A stretch of 64,000 nucleotides of DNA from an archaeon (GTDB taxonomy: Archaea; Iainarchaeota; Iainarchaeia; Iainarchaeales; CSSED10-239). Below are positions 57,872 through 64,000 of the stretch, piece by piece; the first letter of the stretch is position 1; the number at the start of each line of letters is the position of its first letter. The notes under the pieces are model-generated. The model searched no databases. It saw nothing but the letters and a program-made list of their open reading frames with translations, and was not told where the DNA came from. The position numbers were made by a program, and so were the translations under genes. The stretch covers positions 10,651-74,650 of the forward strand of contig DAOOUC010000001.1 of assembly GCA_035390665.1 (NCBI GenBank), given 5' to 3'.

Positions 57872-58115
57872 ACTAATAAAAATTATAAGAAATTATTAAA
57901 AAAGGAGCACATTATGCCGAATTCAAATTTATGTATAAATTTACAATGTAAAATATATCTGATGATTTGTTTCACAATCTAAACTAATAGTTAAAAAAAT
58001 ATCCTTTAGATTCAGATTTTATCTAACTTTAGAGACAAAACCGATTGCCTTTATAAACATAATGACCTTTAGTAGTATTACTTTTTTTAAAATAAAATTA
58101 TCAAAGGTTTTATCA

Positions 58116-61115
58116 ATGGCAACAAAACAAATTATTAACAGAAAAGAAGAAAAAATTGATTATAATATTTACAAAATAAAACTTGCAATACTTAAAGCCC
58201 TTGATGCAATTGATAATCCAGATATTGATTTAGCAGATTATCTTACAAAAAAAATAGATATTAATTTAACAGAAAATTATTTTGATAAAAATAGATGTCC
58301 AACAATTGATGAAATTCAAGACACTGTAGAAGATATATTAATTAAAGAAGGATTGACTAAATTAGTAAAAGCATATGTAATTTATAGAAAACAACACGAT
58401 GATTTTAGAAACATTTCAAAACTCATAGACAGTACAAATGCAGTTGAGAGTTACATAAATATTTCAGATTGGCAAGTTAAGGAAAACAGTAATATGGATT
58501 ATTCATTACAAGGATTAAATAATTATTTATCAACAAAAGTAATATCTGATTATTGGATAAAAAAAATATATCCTTCAGAAATTAGAGAAGCACACGAGAA
58601 AAGGCAACTTCATTTACACGATCTAAATACATTAGGTTCATATTGTGTTGGTTGGGATCTTCAATCTGTTCTACAAACTGGTTTTAGAGGATCTCCAGGT
58701 AAAGTTGTGGCATCTCCACCAAAACATTTAGATACAGCATTAGGACAAATAGTTAATTTTATTTTTACACTTCAAGGAGAATCAGCAGGTGCTCAAGCCT
58801 TTAGTAATTTTGATACCCTTCTTGCCCCATTTATAAGATACGATAATCTTGATTACAAGCAGGTAAGAGCATCCTTAGAGAAATTTATTTATAATATGAA
58901 TGTGCCTACAAGAGTTGGTTTTCAATGTATGTCCCAAGATACAGAAATTCTTACAGAAAATGGGTGGCTTACATATAATGATTTAAAAGTAGGAGATATA
59001 ATAAAAACATTTAACACTAATACAGGTAAAATAGAAGATCTTCCTATAAAAAAATTATTTGCAAGGGAGTACTCTGGCAAAATGTACAATTTAAAAAACA
59101 GAATACAAGATCAGTTAATTTCTCCTAAACACAGAGTTGTAAGAAAAATATTCAATACTAAAAATAAATTTATATTAGAAGAAATTGAAGTTGTTAAAAA
59201 ATATAAATCAGATATTGTTATTCCAATTGCGGGAGATACAAACTACAGAGGAATAAATTGGAGTGATGAAAAAATTAAAATGGTTGCGTGGATTATTGCA
59301 GAAGGAAGTTCCGAGCAGCCTTATCATAAAAATAAAAACTCAAGAAACATAAAAATTTATCAATCTGAAATAAAAAACAATAAAGAATATAAAGAAATAA
59401 AGTCTTTATTAGAATATTTTAAATTTAAATATTCTGAAACCAAACACACAGGACTTGGCGCACCAGTTAATGCAATCAAATTAAATGCTGAATCTTCAAG
59501 AACCATACACTCTTGGTTTGATGATGAAAGCAATATCAAATTTATTCCCATAGATTTATTTAAAGCCAATAAAAAACAAGCAAGATTATTTTTAGAAACC
59601 TATAACAAAGGAGATGGAACAGAGGAATTTAAAATTTCTACAACTTCTGTTGATATACTTTATGGTTTGCAACACATGTGTGTGTTAGCAGGTTATGGTT
59701 TTACTACGCTTTTTAGAAAACCAACCATTGGTACAAAGCCAATTTTTGTTTTAAGAATTATACAACACACAGACACAACAATAACTCAAATTAAAGAAAT
59801 TGATTATAAGGGAATTATATGGTGTCCGAACACAGATAATGAAACTGTTATTGCAAAAAGAAATGGCAAGGTTTTTATTACAGGTAACACCCCATTTTCA
59901 AATATCACTCTTGATTTAACTGTACCATCTACATTTAAAGATACACCAGTTATAATAGCAGGGAAACCACAAGATAAAACATATGGCGAATTCCAAAAAG
60001 AGATGGATATTTTTAATATGGCTTTATTAGATATAATGTACGATGGAGATGCATCTGGAAATATGTTCTCTTTTCCGATACCTACAATTAATGTAACAAA
60101 AGAATTTGATTGGTCAACGCCACTAGCTGATAAATTAATTGATTTAACAATAAAATACGGCACTCCATATTTTGCAAACTTTGTAAATTCTGATATGAAA
60201 CCAGAAGATGCAAGAAGTATGTGTTGTAGATTAAGATTAGATAATAGAGAACTACAAAAAAGAGGAGGAGGATTATTTGGTTCTAATCCTTTAACTGGTT
60301 CTATTGGAGTTGTAACAATAAATCTTGCTCAATTAGGCTATCTATCAAAATCAGAAGAAGAATATTTTGAAAATTTAGGTCATCTAATGGATCTTGCTAA
60401 AAAATCTTTAGATATAAAAAGAAAAATTGTAGAAAAATATACTGATGATGGGTTATATCCTTATTCTAAATTTAATTTAAAAAGTATAAAAGACAGATTT
60501 GGTACTTATTGGAAGAATCATTTCTCAACTATAGGTTTACTTGGTTTAAATGAATCCGCAATAAATTTTATGGGAGAAGGAATATATACAGAAAAAGGGC
60601 TAGCTTTTGCAAATAAAGTTATGGACTTTATGAGAGAGAAAATACAAAAGTATCAAGAAGAGACTGGAGCCTTATATAATCTTGAAGCAACACCAGGAGA
60701 AGGAACAACCTATAGATTTGCAAGTTATGATAAAAAGAAATATCCTTCTATAGTTGTTGCAAATGAAGAAAATTACAAGAATAATGGAGCACAACCATAT
60801 TATACAAATTCATCTATGCTTCCAGTAACTTATACAAATGATATATTTGAAGTTTTAGAATTACAAGACGAATTGCAATGTAAATATACAGGTGGAACAG
60901 TAATACACATATTTATTGGAGAAAAAAAACCATCAAGAGAAGCAATTAAATCATTAATACAAAAAATAACAACCAATTATAAATTACCTTACTTTACATT
61001 TACGCCTACATTTTCGGTGTGTCCAAAACACGGGTATATTTTTGGAGAACATGAATATTGTCCATTATGTGATGAAGAAATAGGTTATAAGGAAAATAAA
61101 AATACGGGGGAATAA
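58116..61115 (+). CDS. nrdD: Anaerobic (class III) ribonucleoside-triphosphate reductase NrdD, intein-containing, ending before the glycyl-radical loop
   Basis: ATP-cone-like N-terminus. The NrdD core is collinear to the C-terminal zinc ribbon CPKH...CPLC. Start preferred at MATKQ (58116). Stops at TAA 61113-61115 without an RVxGY motif. Confidence 0.85.
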   Translation: MATKQIINRKEEKIDYNIYKIKLAILKALDAIDNPDIDLADYLTKKIDINLTENYFDKNRCPTIDEIQDTVEDILIKEGLTKLVKAYVIYRKQHDDFRNISKLIDSTNAVESYINISDWQVKENSNMDYSLQGLNNYLSTKVISDYWIKKIYPSEIREAHEKRQLHLHDLNTLGSYCVGWDLQSVLQTGFRGSPGKVVASPPKHLDTALGQIVNFIFTLQGESAGAQAFSNFDTLLAPFIRYDNLDYKQVRASLEKFIYNMNVPTRVGFQCMSQDTEILTENGWLTYNDLKVGDIIKTFNTNTGKIEDLPIKKLFAREYSGKMYNLKNRIQDQLISPKHRVVRKIFNTKNKFILEEIEVVKKYKSDIVIPIAGDTNYRGINWSDEKIKMVAWIIAEGSSEQPYHKNKNSRNIKIYQSEIKNNKEYKEIKSLLEYFKFKYSETKHTGLGAPVNAIKLNAESSRTIHSWFDDESNIKFIPIDLFKANKKQARLFLETYNKGDGTEEFKISTTSVDILYGLQHMCVLAGYGFTTLFRKPTIGTKPIFVLRIIQHTDTTITQIKEIDYKGIIWCPNTDNETVIAKRNGKVFITGNTPFSNITLDLTVPSTFKDTPVIIAGKPQDKTYGEFQKEMDIFNMALLDIMYDGDASGNMFSFPIPTINVTKEFDWSTPLADKLIDLTIKYGTPYFANFVNSDMKPEDARSMCCRLRLDNRELQKRGGGLFGSNPLTGSIGVVTINLAQLGYLSKSEEEYFENLGHLMDLAKKSLDIKRKIVEKYTDDGLYPYSKFNLKSIKDRFGTYWKNHFSTIGLLGLNESAINFMGEGIYTEKGLAFANKVMDFMREKIQKYQEETGALYNLEATPGEGTTYRFASYDKKKYPSIVVANEENYKNNGAQPYYTNSSMLPVTYTNDIFEVLELQDELQCKYTGGTVIHIFIGEKKPSREAIKSLIQKITTNYKLPYFTFTPTFSVCPKHGYIFGEHEYCPLCDEEIGYKENKNTGE
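58926..59888 (+). mobile_element. Intein (321 aa) with a LAGLIDADG homing-endonuclease domain inside nrdD
   Basis: Begins with Cys (CMSQDTEILTENG) after extein ...RVGFQ. Block B-like SPKH. LAGLIDADG-like VAWIIAEGSS and FLETYNKGDG. Ends VFITGN, followed by Thr+1 (TPFSNITLD). The joined exteins read GFQ-TPFSN. Confidence 0.85.
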
Positions 61116-61118
61116 AAG

Positions 61119-61265
61119 ATGAATAATGAAATAGAAGCAAAAAGACAGAAATGTGAAATTTATTCTAGAGTTGTAGGATATGTTAGAAGAATAGATGCCT
61201 GGAATTATGGTAAACAAGCAGAATTTCACGATAGAAAATTATTTTCTGTTCCAGAAAACAAATAA
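61119..61265 (+). CDS. 48-aa ORF encoding the NrdD glycyl-radical loop
   Basis: MNNEIEAKRQKCEIYSRVVGYVRRIDAWNYGKQAEFHDRKLFSVPENK contains the SRVVGY (RVxGY) glycyl-radical motif. It is in the same frame as nrdD, 2 codons after its TAA. A GGGGG run at 61106-61110 lies 8 nt before the ATG. Confidence 0.75.
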   Translation: MNNEIEAKRQKCEIYSRVVGYVRRIDAWNYGKQAEFHDRKLFSVPENK

Positions 61266-61278
61266 TGGTAATTAAAAT

Positions 61279-61944
61279 ATGCCTTTAAGAATAGGAGCAA
61301 TTGAAAAGTTTAGTACAATAGATTATCCAAATAAAATTGCTTGTGTTATTTTTTTAAAGGGGTGTAATTTCAATTGTGGTTTTTGTTATAATAAGCAATT
61401 GGTATTACCTGAGCTTTTCGATTCCAAACCAGACGTTCTTGAAAGTGAAATACACTATTTCTTGGACAAACGAAAAGGTCTTCTCGATGCTGTTGTTATT
61501 ACAGGCGGAGAACCCACAATTTTTGGAAAAGATTTAATTGATTTTATAAAAAAAATTAAAGAAAAAAGTTACCTTGTAAAACTAGATACAAATGGGTCTA
61601 ATCCCGAAATATTAAAAGAAATATTAGACAATAATCTTGTAGATTATGTTGCTATGGATTTAAAAGATATTTTTGAAAATTATAATAACTATACAAAAGT
61701 TCCAAATAAAAATATCAAGACTTCATTTGAGCTATTAAAAAATTCAAAAATTCCCCACGAATTTAGAATTACTACGCACCCCGAGCTGACGTTGAATAAT
61801 TTTAATAAAATAATAGAAACAGCAAAAGGAGAAAAAATATTTGTCCAAGATTTCGTAAACACTAATACTATAAAAGAATATAAAGAAAATAAAACTATAT
61901 ATTCAAAACTTTCAAAAGCAAGTAAAGATTATATTTTAAGATAA
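61279..61944 (+). CDS. nrdG: Anaerobic RNR activating enzyme NrdG (radical SAM)
   Basis: GCNFNCGFCYN (Cx3Cx2C) near the N-terminus, GGEPT SAM-binding motif. 221 aa, adjacent to nrdD. Confidence 0.85.
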   Translation: MPLRIGAIEKFSTIDYPNKIACVIFLKGCNFNCGFCYNKQLVLPELFDSKPDVLESEIHYFLDKRKGLLDAVVITGGEPTIFGKDLIDFIKKIKEKSYLVKLDTNGSNPEILKEILDNNLVDYVAMDLKDIFENYNNYTKVPNKNIKTSFELLKNSKIPHEFRITTHPELTLNNFNKIIETAKGEKIFVQDFVNTNTIKEYKENKTIYSKLSKASKDYILR

Positions 61945-61958
61945 ATAAGTGATTAAAA

Positions 61959-64000
61959 ATGGTTTTTGTAAATACAATTAAAAATAAAAATGGAGAAACA
62001 GAAGAGTTTTCAAAAGAAAGACTAGCAATAATGTTGTTTGAAAACATGTGTAATCTTGGAGAACCTAATCTTAATCTAGCAGAAAAGTTAGCATTTTTAA
62101 TCTATGATAAAGTAAATGCCAAATTTTCAAAGGAAATTTTACAAGAAAAATTAGACGAGATAATTAAAGAAACCCTTCATCAAGAAAATCAAGGAGAGCT
62201 CCTACAAGCATATATTTTTAAAAAAAACAAACCAGAAGCCGCTCAAGCAGATAGTGAATTAAAAGAAATTATTCTAAAACAAATAATAAATATTGACGAA
62301 TCCGATAATTTATCAACTAAATTAGTAAATATTCATTCTCAAATAAATAAATTACAAAATAATCAACACGAAAAGATAAATAAAAAGATTTTTGAATATA
62401 TCAGAGATGGAGTATTTTATCCTAGTTCAACTTTTTTAAGAGAAATAAGTTTGAATCAACAATTGTCTTCAAGTTATTCATTTAAAATCCAAGATTCAAT
62501 TGAAAGCATTTTTGATACATTATCTCAATCAAGTATTGTTCAAAAATATGGTTCTTCAATTTCAATAGATTTATCAAGAATTAGATCAGAAAAAGAAAAA
62601 GTAAAATCTATAAACAGAAATGCCTGTGGACCAATAAGAGTAATTGATCTTTTTGTTTCTGCAAAATCAATGATTGGTTATAATACAAACAGTTCAAATA
62701 ATCTTTATTATATTTCTATAGAACACCCGGATATTGTCTCTTTCTTAAATCACTCAGCTACGACTAAAGAAAATTATGCAGTGTTAATTCCAGATAGATT
62801 CATGAAATCCTTAACAGAAAATTCAGATTATTTTATTGAGATCAATTCTGAAAATAAAATAAAAATTTCTCCTTTAGCATTAATTGATTTAATTTCTTCT
62901 AAAATAATTACTGGAGAAAATATAAATTTAATATTCATAGATTCAATAAATAAAAAGAATCCATTTTTAGATAACTATAAACCATTTACAATATCTTCTA
63001 TAGGATTACAACCTGTTTTTGAAGATAATTCTTTTGCTAGTGGCGTAATCGATGTTTCTAAGTTTGTAAATATTCTAGGAAATACTAAAACCTTTGATTG
63101 GGCAAAATTAAAAGTAGTTATTTGGGACACTTTAGAGTTTCTAGATAATTCAATTGATTTAACTAAAACAATAAATGAGAAATACACACAAGAACTAAAA
63201 GAAACAAGACAAGTCTATATTTCAATTACAGGTTTTTATTCTTTATTATCTAAACTAGGCATTGCTTACGAAAGTGATGATGCAATTTATTTTGCTGATG
63301 CATTGTCTGATTATATTAATTATTATTCAAAACTTAAATCAACAGAACTTGCAAAAGAAAGAGGGCCATTTTTTAAATTTATAAAAAGTAAATACGAATT
63401 GCCTAATTTTTCTTTTGATAAGGCCCCAATTCAAAAAACATTATTTTCTAATGATTTAAATCAAACAAAAAAACTACTTAAAAACATGCCCACAATTGAT
63501 TGGACAGAACTAAGAAACAACATTAAGAAATATGGTTTAAGAAATTCAACAACATTTTCAATAATATTTTCTGATTTTTATTCTGTTGCTAATGAATGTA
63601 GTAATGGAATAGATGCAATTATAAGTTATAAATCTACAATTTGGGTAAATGGCCACAAGTTTGAAAAAATAAATAAAGAACTTAATACACAAGTTTCTGA
63701 TTTAAAATCTAATTGGACACAAAATGAGATTGAATCGTCAGTTCCAGACATCATAAAATCTAAGTTACCACTTGCAAGATCAATATCCCCGCAATTCTTT
63801 ATAAGATTACAATCTGTTTTTGAAAAAAACACAGATGGTTGTACTAACCTAAAGGTTTATTTTACAGATTGCACAAGTATTCAAGACATTAAAAATATTA
63901 TTCTAGAGACACACAGAATAGGAAACACTATTTTTTGTGCAGAAAAAATAAATGGTCATCAAAAAGACTTTAACACAGAAAATAAAAAAGGATTAATGAG
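61959..64000 (+). CDS. Partial CDS (open at window end): ATP-cone plus class II RNR-like protein lacking the canonical catalytic residues
   Basis: Not in the ORF track. Hand translation from ATG 61959 gives 680 codons without a stop. ATP-cone-like IKNKNGETEEFSKERLAIML, then RNR-collinear blocks (GSSISIDLSRIRS, NACGPIRVIDLF, LIFIDSINKKNP, YGLRNSTTFSI). The active-site positions are substituted. Confidence 0.7.
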   Translation, partial: MVFVNTIKNKNGETEEFSKERLAIMLFENMCNLGEPNLNLAEKLAFLIYDKVNAKFSKEILQEKLDEIIKETLHQENQGELLQAYIFKKNKPEAAQADSELKEIILKQIINIDESDNLSTKLVNIHSQINKLQNNQHEKINKKIFEYIRDGVFYPSSTFLREISLNQQLSSSYSFKIQDSIESIFDTLSQSSIVQKYGSSISIDLSRIRSEKEKVKSINRNACGPIRVIDLFVSAKSMIGYNTNSSNNLYYISIEHPDIVSFLNHSATTKENYAVLIPDRFMKSLTENSDYFIEINSENKIKISPLALIDLISSKIITGENINLIFIDSINKKNPFLDNYKPFTISSIGLQPVFEDNSFASGVIDVSKFVNILGNTKTFDWAKLKVVIWDTLEFLDNSIDLTKTINEKYTQELKETRQVYISITGFYSLLSKLGIAYESDDAIYFADALSDYINYYSKLKSTELAKERGPFFKFIKSKYELPNFSFDKAPIQKTLFSNDLNQTKKLLKNMPTIDWTELRNNIKKYGLRNSTTFSIIFSDFYSVANECSNGIDAIISYKSTIWVNGHKFEKINKELNTQVSDLKSNWTQNEIESSVPDIIKSKLPLARSISPQFFIRLQSVFEKNTDGCTNLKVYFTDCTSIQDIKNIILETHRIGNTIFCAEKINGHQKDFNTENKKGLM

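What the first reader, a model, noticed from the sequence alone, without database searches (positions are those of the whole stretch)
61959..64000. ATP-cone plus class II RNR homologue with every alignable catalytic residue substituted (candidate RNR pseudoenzyme)
This long frame is missing from the ORF track because it is open at the window end. It has an ATP-cone-like N-terminus and is clearly collinear with adenosylcobalamin-type RNR cores. The active-site positions differ, however. Where class II enzymes have QLS-x-CFV, this protein reads QLSSSYSF (62463-62483). Where they have TNPCGEQPLLPYESCNLGS, it reads ISSIGLQPVFEDNSFASG (62991-63044). That corresponds to Asn->Ser, thiyl-radical Cys->Ile (codon 63000-63002), Glu->Leu, and both redox-pair Cys residues ->Ser/Phe. 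The alignment is from my memory of the Thermotoga/Pyrococcus motifs (N320, C322, E324, C333, C134 numbering). The frame is intact for 680 codons, so it does not look like a decaying pseudogene. An RNR fold that keeps the nucleotide-sensing ATP cone but cannot do chemistry, sitting next to a real nrdD-nrdG pair, suggests a dNTP/ATP-sensing regulator or an allosteric partner.
Basis: partly seen in the sequence, partly recalled or inferred. Interest (0 to 1): 0.62.

Follow-up and report, generated by a model that had tools for sequence, protein, structure and literature searches.

The report
Conserved dead B12-type ribonucleotide reductase paralogue
A small group of uncultured, AT-rich archaea from anaerobic digesters keeps a full-length copy of a vitamin-B12-type ribonucleotide reductase directly behind its working anaerobic reductase genes; the copy has lost every catalytic residue but is still under strong selection, so it probably acts as a nucleotide-binding helper rather than an enzyme.

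Summary
Window 61959-64000 (+) encodes 680 of the 682 codons of an ATP-cone plus RNR-barrel protein. Its closest solved structure is Thermotoga maritima NrdJ.

Three independent alignments place non-catalytic residues at all five catalytic columns:
- C134 to S
- N320 to S
- C322 to I
- E324 to L
- C333 to F

The loop-2 arginine, the substrate-phosphate loop (PTG to FSD) and the betaJ motif are also lost. All 23 homologue clusters (99% down to 37% identity) show the same losses.

The gene is not decaying. dN/dS is 0.07-0.13, similar to the neighbouring nrdG. It sits 12-20 nt behind nrdG in every context recovered. Metatranscriptome contigs match it.

The three side chains that anchor the allosteric dNTP effector in T. 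maritima NrdJ (D141, K158, R171) are invariant. This fits retained dNTP binding but does not prove it. The ATP-cone is divergent and its nucleotide binding is undecided.

Best reading: a selected RNR pseudoenzyme, probably a nucleotide-binding accessory or regulator of the class III system. I found no description in the literature held. Other agents of this scan have noted the same family in other genomes.

The parts
61959..64000 (+). Catalytically dead class II RNR-like gene: 680 of 682 codons. The last two codons (Ser-Leu) and the stop lie beyond the window end.
   Evidence: ORF list and translation. Full length from the identical locus L010 and from P0002. Fold is closest to T. maritima NrdJ.
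61977..62225 (+). Divergent ATP-cone domain (aa 7-89). The K-R hairpin reads N-K. The segment EPNLNLAEKLAFLI is almost invariant in the family.
   Evidence: Pfam PF03477, 28.7 bits against a cut-off of 25.8. Family alignment. AF2 pLDDT is 81-94 over aa 1-80.
62469..63923 (+). RNR ten-stranded barrel domain (aa 171-655).
   Evidence: Pfam PF02867, 190.6 bits. Foldseek to 1xje/3o0q, E about 1e-33, TM-score 0.71-0.74 normalised to the target.
62472..62474 (+). Ser172 at the column of the betaA redox cysteine (T. maritima C134). The family has S15/G6/T2.
62493..62585 (+). Retained specificity-site anchors D179, K196 and R209, equivalent to T. maritima D141, K158 and R171. All three are invariant in 23 of 23 family clusters.
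   Evidence: Column table. Roles of the T. maritima residues from PMC4728125 Table 4.
62580..62633 (+). Loop-1 equivalent IRSEKEKVKSINRNACGP. It is strongly conserved in the family and rich in lysine.
   Evidence: region 216-240 has mean pairwise identity 0.66
62676..62708 (+). Loop-2 equivalent GYNTNSSNNLY. The conserved RRRG, including R207 that contacts the substrate phosphate, is replaced.
   Evidence: Role of R207 from PMC4728125 Table 4.
62991..63044 (+). Former finger loop ISSIGLQPVFEDNSFASG: N320->S346, C322->I348, E324->L350, C333->F359. The replacements are hydrophobic across the family (I/V; L/F/Y/M; F).
63567..63575 (+). F-S-D in place of the conserved P-T-G loop (T. maritima 490-492). 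The Asp is invariant in the family.
63924..63947 (+). betaJ region NTIFCAEK in place of the class II motif (C)KG(I/V)T(V/I)YR.
   Evidence: The betaJ/finger-loop space is the adenosyl pocket in class II RNRs according to 10.1101/2022.04.23.489257.
58062..61115 (+). nrdD (class III RNR, ATP-cone, MCCR finger loop) with a 321-aa intein at 58926-59888. First gene of the same operon.
61119..61265 (+). Separate 48-aa ORF carrying the glycyl-radical motif (YSRVVGY) of NrdD.
   Evidence: The same split is seen in relatives.
61279..61944 (+). nrdG (radical-SAM activase). It ends 14 nt before the dead RNR start codon, and a GTGAT Shine-Dalgarno-like motif lies in the gap.

Best explanation
The gene encodes a pseudoenzyme derived from an ATP-cone-bearing dimeric class II (B12-type) ribonucleotide reductase.

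Shown:
- The protein keeps the whole NrdJ fold.
- It has lost every residue needed for radical nucleotide reduction: the thiyl Cys, both redox Cys, Asn and Glu.
- It has also lost the loop-2 arginine, the substrate-phosphate loop and the betaJ motif next to the adenosyl pocket.
- The former active site now carries hydrophobic side chains.
- The gene is transcribed and is kept by purifying selection about as strong as that on nrdG.
- It is always the gene directly after nrdD, the glycyl-radical peptide gene and nrdG.

Inferred:
- It still forms the RNR-type dimer.
- It binds a dNTP at the retained specificity-site anchors (D179, K196, R209 and a Lys-rich loop 1).
- It serves the co-transcribed class III RNR system as a nucleotide-sensing accessory or regulator. 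It could do this by binding NrdD, for example through the two ATP-cones, or by buffering or reporting dNTP levels.
- It does not make deoxyribonucleotides.
For: Homology and fold:
- Pfam barrel 190.6 bits.
- phmmer to 1xje, E 2e-27.
- AF2 model with mean pLDDT 87 and pTM 0.81.
- Foldseek best hits are all T. maritima NrdJ, E about 1e-33.

Loss of the catalytic machinery:
- All 23 family clusters lack the five catalytic residues.
- Of 45 columns that are at least 95% conserved in 54 intact NrdJ, 26 are lost. These include C134, N320, C322, E324, C333, R207, P490-T491-G492, G390/G392 and K597/N600.
- All NCBIfam RNR models score far below their cut-offs, e.g. NrdJ_Z 191.7 against 399.95.

Selection:
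- dN/dS is 0.07-0.13 over pairs from 99% to 70% identity, against 0.10-0.16 for nrdG and 0.04-0.11 for cdc48.
- Intact orthologues of 646-700 aa exist down to 37% identity.

Operon:
- nrdG ends 12-20 nt upstream in the window and in L001-L012, including the most divergent member.

Transcription:
- Contigs of 151-179 nt from RNA-Seq-labelled runs of 3 independent data sets (4 studies, two with identical contigs; two runs are metatranscriptomic) match the gene at 97-99%.

Specificity site:
- D141, K158 and R171 anchor the effector in T. maritima NrdJ (PMC4728125 Table 4). Their equivalents are invariant here.
- D141 and R171 are also kept in seven other Cys-less NrdJ-like lineages.
Against: - Nucleotide binding has not been shown.
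- D141 and R171 are among the most conserved columns of all RNRs, and 42% of such columns are retained anyway. Their survival may therefore be structural.
- Loop 2, which reads the effector base and relays it to the active site, is rebuilt.
- The ATP-cone lacks the first basic residue of the K-R pair.
- No physical link to NrdD is shown. Gene order around the operon is conserved over more than 20 kb in these genomes, so the adjacency is partly inherited synteny within one lineage and is not independent co-occurrence.
Confidence: 0.55

Rival explanations
1. The dead barrel is a docking or carrier protein for the free-standing 48-aa glycyl-radical peptide of the split NrdD. The emptied cofactor and active-site region would hold the peptide, for example for activation by NrdG, for protection, or for delivery to NrdD.
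For: - The glycyl-radical motif is on a separate ORF in every genome that carries the dead RNR.
- All of these genes lie in one tight operon.
- The cofactor-side motifs of the barrel are rebuilt but conserved within the family.
- An earlier agent of this scan raised the same idea (e1-1470392). That is a lead and not evidence.
Against: - According to an earlier scan note (e1-2518131, not checked here), split NrdD occurs widely in lineages that lack this protein. The peptide would therefore not generally need such a partner.
- The dead family is confined to about 4-6 clusters at 50% identity.
- No interaction evidence exists, and no multimer prediction was possible with these tools.
Confidence: 0.1
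2. The protein is a neo-functionalised enzyme. The barrel would catalyse a different, non-radical reaction, using family-specific invariant polar residues such as S346, Y420, S422, T424, D539, N545, Y557 and K558.
For: Of the 183 columns that are invariant within the family, about 95 carry a residue that is rare in real RNRs. Several of these are polar and lie at former active-site motifs. Conservation is spread evenly over the whole barrel.
Against: - The thiyl-Cys, Glu and second redox-Cys columns became hydrophobic (I/V, L/F/Y/M, F). The 324-equivalent position also varies within the family. This looks like a filled pocket and not a new catalytic centre.
- No other Pfam or NCBIfam family matches.
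Confidence: 0.12
3. The gene is a functionless relic of an NrdJ that became useless after loss of B12 supply, and it is decaying slowly.
For: The catalytic residues are lost. The family sits on a very long stem branch in the tree.
Against: - dN/dS is 0.07-0.13, similar to neighbouring essential genes.
- Full-length intact frames are found in every recovered member down to 37% identity.
- 183 columns are invariant within the family.
- Transcripts are detected.
Confidence: 0.03
4. The protein is still a ribonucleotide reductase that uses an unconventional radical route or reductant.
For: The fold and the operon context are both RNR-related.
Against: - There is no cysteine anywhere in the finger loop.
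- The substrate 3'-OH ligands N320 and E324, the phosphate contact R207 and the P-T-G loop are all replaced. An invariant Asp now sits in the former P-T-G loop.
Confidence: 0.02

Closest known systems
Dimeric class II (adenosylcobalamin-dependent) RNR, NrdJ, e.g. Thermotoga maritima NrdJ (PDB 1xje, 3o0n-3o0q)
   Same: Same overall fold and collinear sequence. Shared structural motifs include HPD, FLDN-ID, RN(S/A) and NKxNP. The effector anchors D141, K158 and R171 are shared.
   Different: - All five catalytic residues, loop-2 R207, the PTG loop, the GGGxG, GLG and SKTxN motifs, and the betaJ motif are replaced.
- There is no C-terminal Cys pair.
- The NCBIfam NrdJ_Z score is half its cut-off.
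ATP-cone-bearing NrdJ of DPANN archaea (e.g. P0028 at 703 aa; P0027, named by NCBI as adenosylcobalamin-dependent RNR of Candidatus Woesearchaeota)
   Same: Same architecture (N-terminal ATP-cone followed by the barrel) and nearly the same length. These are among the closest catalytically equipped relatives in the databases at 24-29% identity; intein-bearing NrdJs score slightly higher.
   Different: These relatives keep the thiyl Cys and Glu, and most keep the full C-N-C-E-C set. They also match PF00317, the all-alpha domain, which the dead family no longer matches.
Known RNR pseudoenzymes: yeast Rnr4 (an inactive beta-type subunit that pairs with Rnr2) and the betaherpesvirus R1 homologues M45/UL45 (inactive alpha subunits with other roles).
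   Same: An RNR subunit fold is kept under selection after catalytic or cofactor residues are lost, and it takes on an accessory or unrelated role.
   Different: Those are class I subunits of eukaryotes and their viruses. This one is a class II alpha chain of archaea, encoded inside a class III operon, with its allosteric dNTP anchors intact.
NrdR (an ATP-cone transcriptional repressor of nrd operons; PMC9110341, listed)
   Same: A non-catalytic, ATP-cone-containing protein tied genetically to RNR genes, thought to read nucleotide levels.
   Different: NrdR is small and has a zinc-ribbon DNA-binding domain. This protein has no DNA-binding domain and carries a whole RNR barrel.

Membership tests
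Class II RNR (NrdJ) | Ten-stranded alpha/beta barrel of the RNR catalytic subunit | tested here: met
   PF02867 at 190.6 bits. Foldseek best hits are T. maritima NrdJ, E about 1e-33, TM-score 0.71-0.74.
Class II RNR (NrdJ) | [quoted passage not shown] | tested here: not met
   Ile348 here and I12/V11 in the family. There is no Cys in the loop.
Class II RNR (NrdJ) | Redox cysteine pair (C134, C333) and the substrate 3'-OH ligands N320 and E324 | tested here: not met
   The residues here are S172, F359, S346 and L350. Roles are taken from PMC4728125 Table 4.
Class II RNR (NrdJ) | Curated model score (NCBIfam TIGR02504 NrdJ_Z, cut-off 399.95) | tested here: not met
   191.7 bits. All other RNR models also score far below their cut-offs.
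Class II RNR (NrdJ) | Adenosylcobalamin binding | not testable with these tools
   The betaJ motif beside the adenosyl pocket is replaced, but binding itself was not tested.
RNR allosteric specificity site (s-site) | Side chains that anchor the effector ribose and phosphates (T. maritima D141, K158, R171) | tested here: met
   D179, K196 and R209 are invariant in 23 of 23 clusters.
RNR allosteric specificity site (s-site) | Loop 2 that reads the effector base and relays it to the active site (includes R207) | tested here: not met
   KQGxRRRGA is replaced by GYNTNSSNN.
ATP-cone domain (PF03477) | Pfam gathering score | tested here: met
   28.7 bits against 25.8, which is marginal. The domain is not recorded for 6 of the 24 family clusters.
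ATP-cone domain (PF03477) | Basic residues that hold the triphosphates (P. copri NrdD Lys7, Arg8, Arg87, Arg91; PMC11226230) | tested here: inconclusive
   The first basic residue is absent in all 18 members aligned. The second is K or R in 14 of those 18. The last helix keeps Y and K-K. The neighbouring NrdD cone also reads N-R.
Pseudoenzyme (a catalytically dead homologue kept by selection) | Homology to an enzyme, loss of catalytic residues, and purifying selection | tested here: met
Pseudoenzyme (a catalytically dead homologue kept by selection) | Experimentally shown lack of the parental activity | not testable with these tools
   This needs an RNR assay on purified protein.
NCBIfam NF005401 (PRK06948, 'ribonucleotide reductase-like protein') | Curated model score (cut-off 906) | tested here: not met
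   80.1 bits.

The most novel reading that the evidence does not exclude
The dead NrdJ barrel is a dedicated protein partner of the split class III RNR. It would either hold and present the free 48-aa glycyl-radical peptide, or form a nucleotide-gated hetero-oligomer with NrdD through the two ATP-cones. In either case a class II scaffold would have been recruited as a regulatory subunit of a class III enzyme.
Probability: 0.12. Interest if true: 0.85.

Novelty: new variant of a known kind. Interest (0 to 1): 0.55.

Why it matters
RNR is one of the best-studied allosteric enzymes. Dead RNR subunits are known from yeast and herpesviruses, but in the literature I could search there is no described prokaryotic class II alpha chain that is kept purely for a non-catalytic role. 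If this protein still binds dNTPs at the specificity site, it would be a natural separation-of-function variant: allostery without chemistry. That would be useful for studying how RNR effector sites work. It would also point to an unrecognised layer of dNTP control in genome-reduced archaea that depend on a single anaerobic RNR. In practical terms, pipelines annotate these genes as 'ribonucleoside-diphosphate reductase alpha chain'. That wrongly credits these organisms with a second RNR, and one that works independently of oxygen.

Tried and rejected
I could not ask whether the genome has an intact class I or II RNR, cobalamin genes or nrdR.
- Six literature searches found nothing on prokaryotic dead class II RNRs. 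The search was too loose to be useful.
- The large RNR phylogeny paper and the RNRdb paper do not discuss catalytically dead members.
- The review PMC3267527 gave no residue-level data on the s-site. PMC4728125 Table 4 did.
- I asked whether retention of the effector anchors is statistically special. It is not: 19 of 45 top-conserved columns are retained, so I lowered the weight of that argument.
- I tested whether the downstream 2TM mini-ORF is an obligatory partner and rejected the idea. It is missing in L006 and L012.
- I tested whether other Cys-less NrdJ-like proteins (P0078, P0071) also sit by nrdDG. In the short contigs available they do not.
- I rejected simple decay because of the dN/dS values.
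- A multimer or ligand-bound structure prediction was not possible with the tool. The model coordinates cannot be inspected, so the pocket geometry and the docking place of the C-terminal tail remain unknown.
Full report
**What is in the sequence**

The frame 61959-63998 (+) is open for 680 codons and runs off the window end. A metagenome contig, L010, matches the window exactly over all 2042 overlapping bases. It shows that only Ser-Leu and the stop codon are missing, so the protein is 682 aa long and ends ...NTENKKGLMSL.

Pfam finds an ATP-cone at aa 7-89 (28.7 bits, cut-off 25.8) and the RNR barrel domain at aa 171-655 (190.6 bits). Every curated NCBIfam RNR model scores far below its cut-off. 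The best class II model, NrdJ_Z, gives 191.7 bits against 399.95.

The window has 28% G+C. Sequencing runs that hold this stretch come from anaerobic digesters, sludge and wastewater. Sources name the homologues only as '[archaeon]'.

**The catalytic columns**

phmmer against all PDB sequences puts T. maritima NrdJ (1xje) first (E 2e-27). It gives these replacements:
- C134 to S172
- N320 to S346
- C322 to I348
- E324 to L350
- C333 to F359

A 24-sequence MAFFT alignment and a 93-sequence L-INS-i alignment give the same columns. The second alignment includes the T. maritima fragment taken.

The functional roles of N320, E324 and R207 in T. maritima NrdJ are listed in Table 4 of PMC4728125; those of the three cysteines follow from their E. 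coli equivalents in that paper and from general RNR knowledge.

**How far the loss goes**

I took 54 NrdJ representatives that carry the full C-N-C-E-C set. In them, 45 alignment columns are at least 95% conserved. The dead family keeps 19 of these columns and has lost 26. The lost columns include:
- all five catalytic residues
- loop-2 R207, which contacts the substrate phosphate
- the P490-T491-G492 loop, now F-S-D with an invariant Asp
- G162/G164 of the GGGxG motif
- G390/G392 of the GLG motif
- K597/N600 of the SKTxN motif
- the betaJ motif KG-T-YR (conserved at 81-88%, below the 95% cut)

A published RNR phylogeny paper describes the space between betaJ and the finger-loop cysteine as the adenosyl pocket of class II enzymes.

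The replacements at the thiyl-Cys, Glu and second redox-Cys columns are hydrophobic (I/V; L/F/Y/M; F), and the 324-equivalent position varies within the family. This looks like a filled pocket and not like a new catalytic centre.

**Fold**

AlphaFold2 on the family alignment gives a confident model (mean pLDDT 87.1, pTM 0.81). Foldseek against the PDB returns T. maritima NrdJ entries as the top 14 hits (E about 1e-33, TM-score 0.70-0.74 normalised to the target). Class I alpha subunits follow.

**It is a family and not an accident**

The word-indexed search found 24 clusters of 646-700 aa, from 99% down to 37% identity. There is then a gap to genuine NrdJ proteins at 23-29% identity.

The exhaustive HMMER search of 1.84 billion representatives shows that the family amounts to only about four to six clusters at 50% identity. 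After those, the next hits are ordinary, often intein-bearing, NrdJ proteins.

All 23 clusters examined have the same substitutions. In a FastTree phylogeny the family is monophyletic and sits on a very long stem.

**Selection and expression**

Nei-Gojobori estimates on codon alignments give dN/dS of 0.07-0.13 for the dead RNR, over pairs from 99% to 70% protein identity. The same genome pairs give 0.10-0.16 for nrdG and 0.04-0.11 for cdc48. dS is saturated for the distant pairs. The unsaturated pair (dS 0.048) gives 0.076, but it rests on few changes.

Contigs of 151-179 nt from RNA-Seq-labelled runs of 3 independent data sets (4 studies, two with identical contigs; two runs are metatranscriptomic) match the gene at 97-99%. 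This is weak but positive evidence of transcription, because DNA carry-over cannot be excluded.

**Context**

In the window the gene order is:
- a xerA-like recombinase gene on the minus strand
- nrdD (58062-61115), with a 321-aa intein and an MCCR finger loop
- a separate 48-aa ORF with the glycyl-radical motif (61119-61265)
- nrdG (61279-61944)
- the dead RNR

The gaps between these genes are 3, 13 and 14 nt. A GTGAT motif lies in front of the dead RNR start codon.

The same order holds in every recovered locus where upstream DNA is held. This includes the most divergent member, P0025 (37-40% identity). Its upstream partial ORF is 59% identical to the window's NrdG and ends 12 nt before the gene.

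One caveat applies. Gene order is conserved over more than 20 kb around the operon in these genomes (mutS, trm56, tfe, cdc48, topA and others). The adjacency is therefore partly inherited synteny within one lineage.

**What may still work**

PMC4728125 Table 4 lists the T. maritima side chains that hold the specificity effector: D141 contacts the ribose 3'-OH, and K158 and R171 contact the phosphates. Their equivalents, D179, K196 and R209, are invariant in all 23 clusters.

The loop-1 equivalent (IRSEKEKVKSINRNACGP) is one of the best-conserved stretches in the family and is rich in lysine. D141 and R171 also survive in seven other NrdJ-like representatives that lack the thiyl cysteine.

This fits a retained dNTP site at the dimer interface. 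I do not treat it as proof, for two reasons. First, 42% of the top-conserved columns survive anyway. Second, loop 2, which reads the effector base, is rebuilt.

The ATP-cone folds confidently in the model, and its segment EPNLNLAEKLAFLI is almost invariant. However, in P. copri NrdD the triphosphates are held by Lys7, Arg8, Arg87 and Arg91 (PMC11226230). The first of these basic residues is missing in every aligned member of the dead family. The neighbouring NrdD cone also reads N-R at that place, so this point is undecided.

**Interpretation**

The mechanism is inferred. I think it is most likely a dimeric, dNTP-binding (and perhaps ATP/dATP-binding) accessory or regulator of the class III system.

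The rivals are:
- a dock for the free glycyl-radical peptide
- a new enzyme
- a functionless relic, which the selection data contradict
- an unconventional RNR, which the missing finger-loop cysteine and substrate ligands contradict

**Comparison with what is known, and novelty**

The closest known proteins are dimeric NrdJ enzymes, especially the ATP-cone NrdJ proteins of DPANN archaea. These have the same architecture and length but keep the chemistry.

Conceptually the closest cases are the eukaryotic and viral RNR pseudoenzymes Rnr4 and M45/UL45. I cite these from my own knowledge.

Six full-text searches and three RNR survey papers gave no description of a prokaryotic dead class II alpha chain.

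Other agents of this scan have reported the same family in other genomes and reached similar conclusions. I treat these notes as leads. Everything I use from them was re-derived here. They mean the family is no longer new to this scan, although it appears undescribed in the literature held.

**Limits**

The presence of other RNRs, cobalamin genes or nrdR in this genome therefore remains unknown.

Model coordinates could not be inspected, and no multimer or ligand prediction was available.

Noticed in passing
window 61113-61265: nrdD ends at a stop codon right after its zinc ribbon. The glycyl-radical motif (YSRVVGY) lies on a separate 48-aa ORF that starts 3 nt later. Relatives have the same split, but in other frames or overlapping the upstream ORF (L002, L003, L006), so the split is real and not a read-through. 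An earlier agent of this scan has already followed this up (e1-2518131).
   Followed up: partly
window 58926-59888: A 321-aa intein (CMSQDTEIL...KVFITGN) interrupts the NrdD core. Some relatives have an intein-free nrdD of 676-677 aa (L002, L012).
   Followed up: partly
proteins P0071, P0078, P0107, P0132, P0143, P0162, P0182; loci L013, L015: Seven other cluster representatives at 50% identity are NrdJ-like proteins that lack the thiyl cysteine and most other catalytic residues, while keeping D141 and R171. They branch near the base of the tree and outside the window's family. In the short contigs available, P0078 and P0071 are not next to nrdDG. Loss of catalysis in class II-like RNRs therefore seems to be recurrent.
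   Followed up: partly
proteins P0027, P0069, P0119, P0144, P0171, P0208: These NrdJ-like proteins keep the thiyl Cys but differ at other catalytic columns. Five of the six lack one or both redox cysteines (P0171 keeps both), and Asn320 is Asp in five and Gly in one. One of them is annotated as an AdoCbl-dependent RNR of Woesearchaeota. They may use a different reductant or have a different role.
   Followed up: no
L010 8020-8049 (the C-terminus, just beyond the window end): All family members but one end in (M/K/T/N)-S-Leu, preceded by F-(N/S/T)-(T/S/I)-(E/D/N) 8-10 residues upstream. In the AF2 model the last residues regain confidence (pLDDT about 81) and form a beta-bridge. The tail tip may therefore dock onto the protein, but where it docks could not be seen.
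   Followed up: no
L010 8069-8344; L001 7142-7417: A small ORF of about 91 aa with a weak 2TM-domain match follows the dead RNR on the same strand in most relatives. It is absent in L006 and L012, so it is probably not an obligatory partner.
   Followed up: partly
window 58120-58400 (NrdD ATP-cone): The ATP-cone of the functional NrdD also reads N-R where canonical cones have K-R. This resembles the N-K of the dead RNR cone.
   Followed up: no
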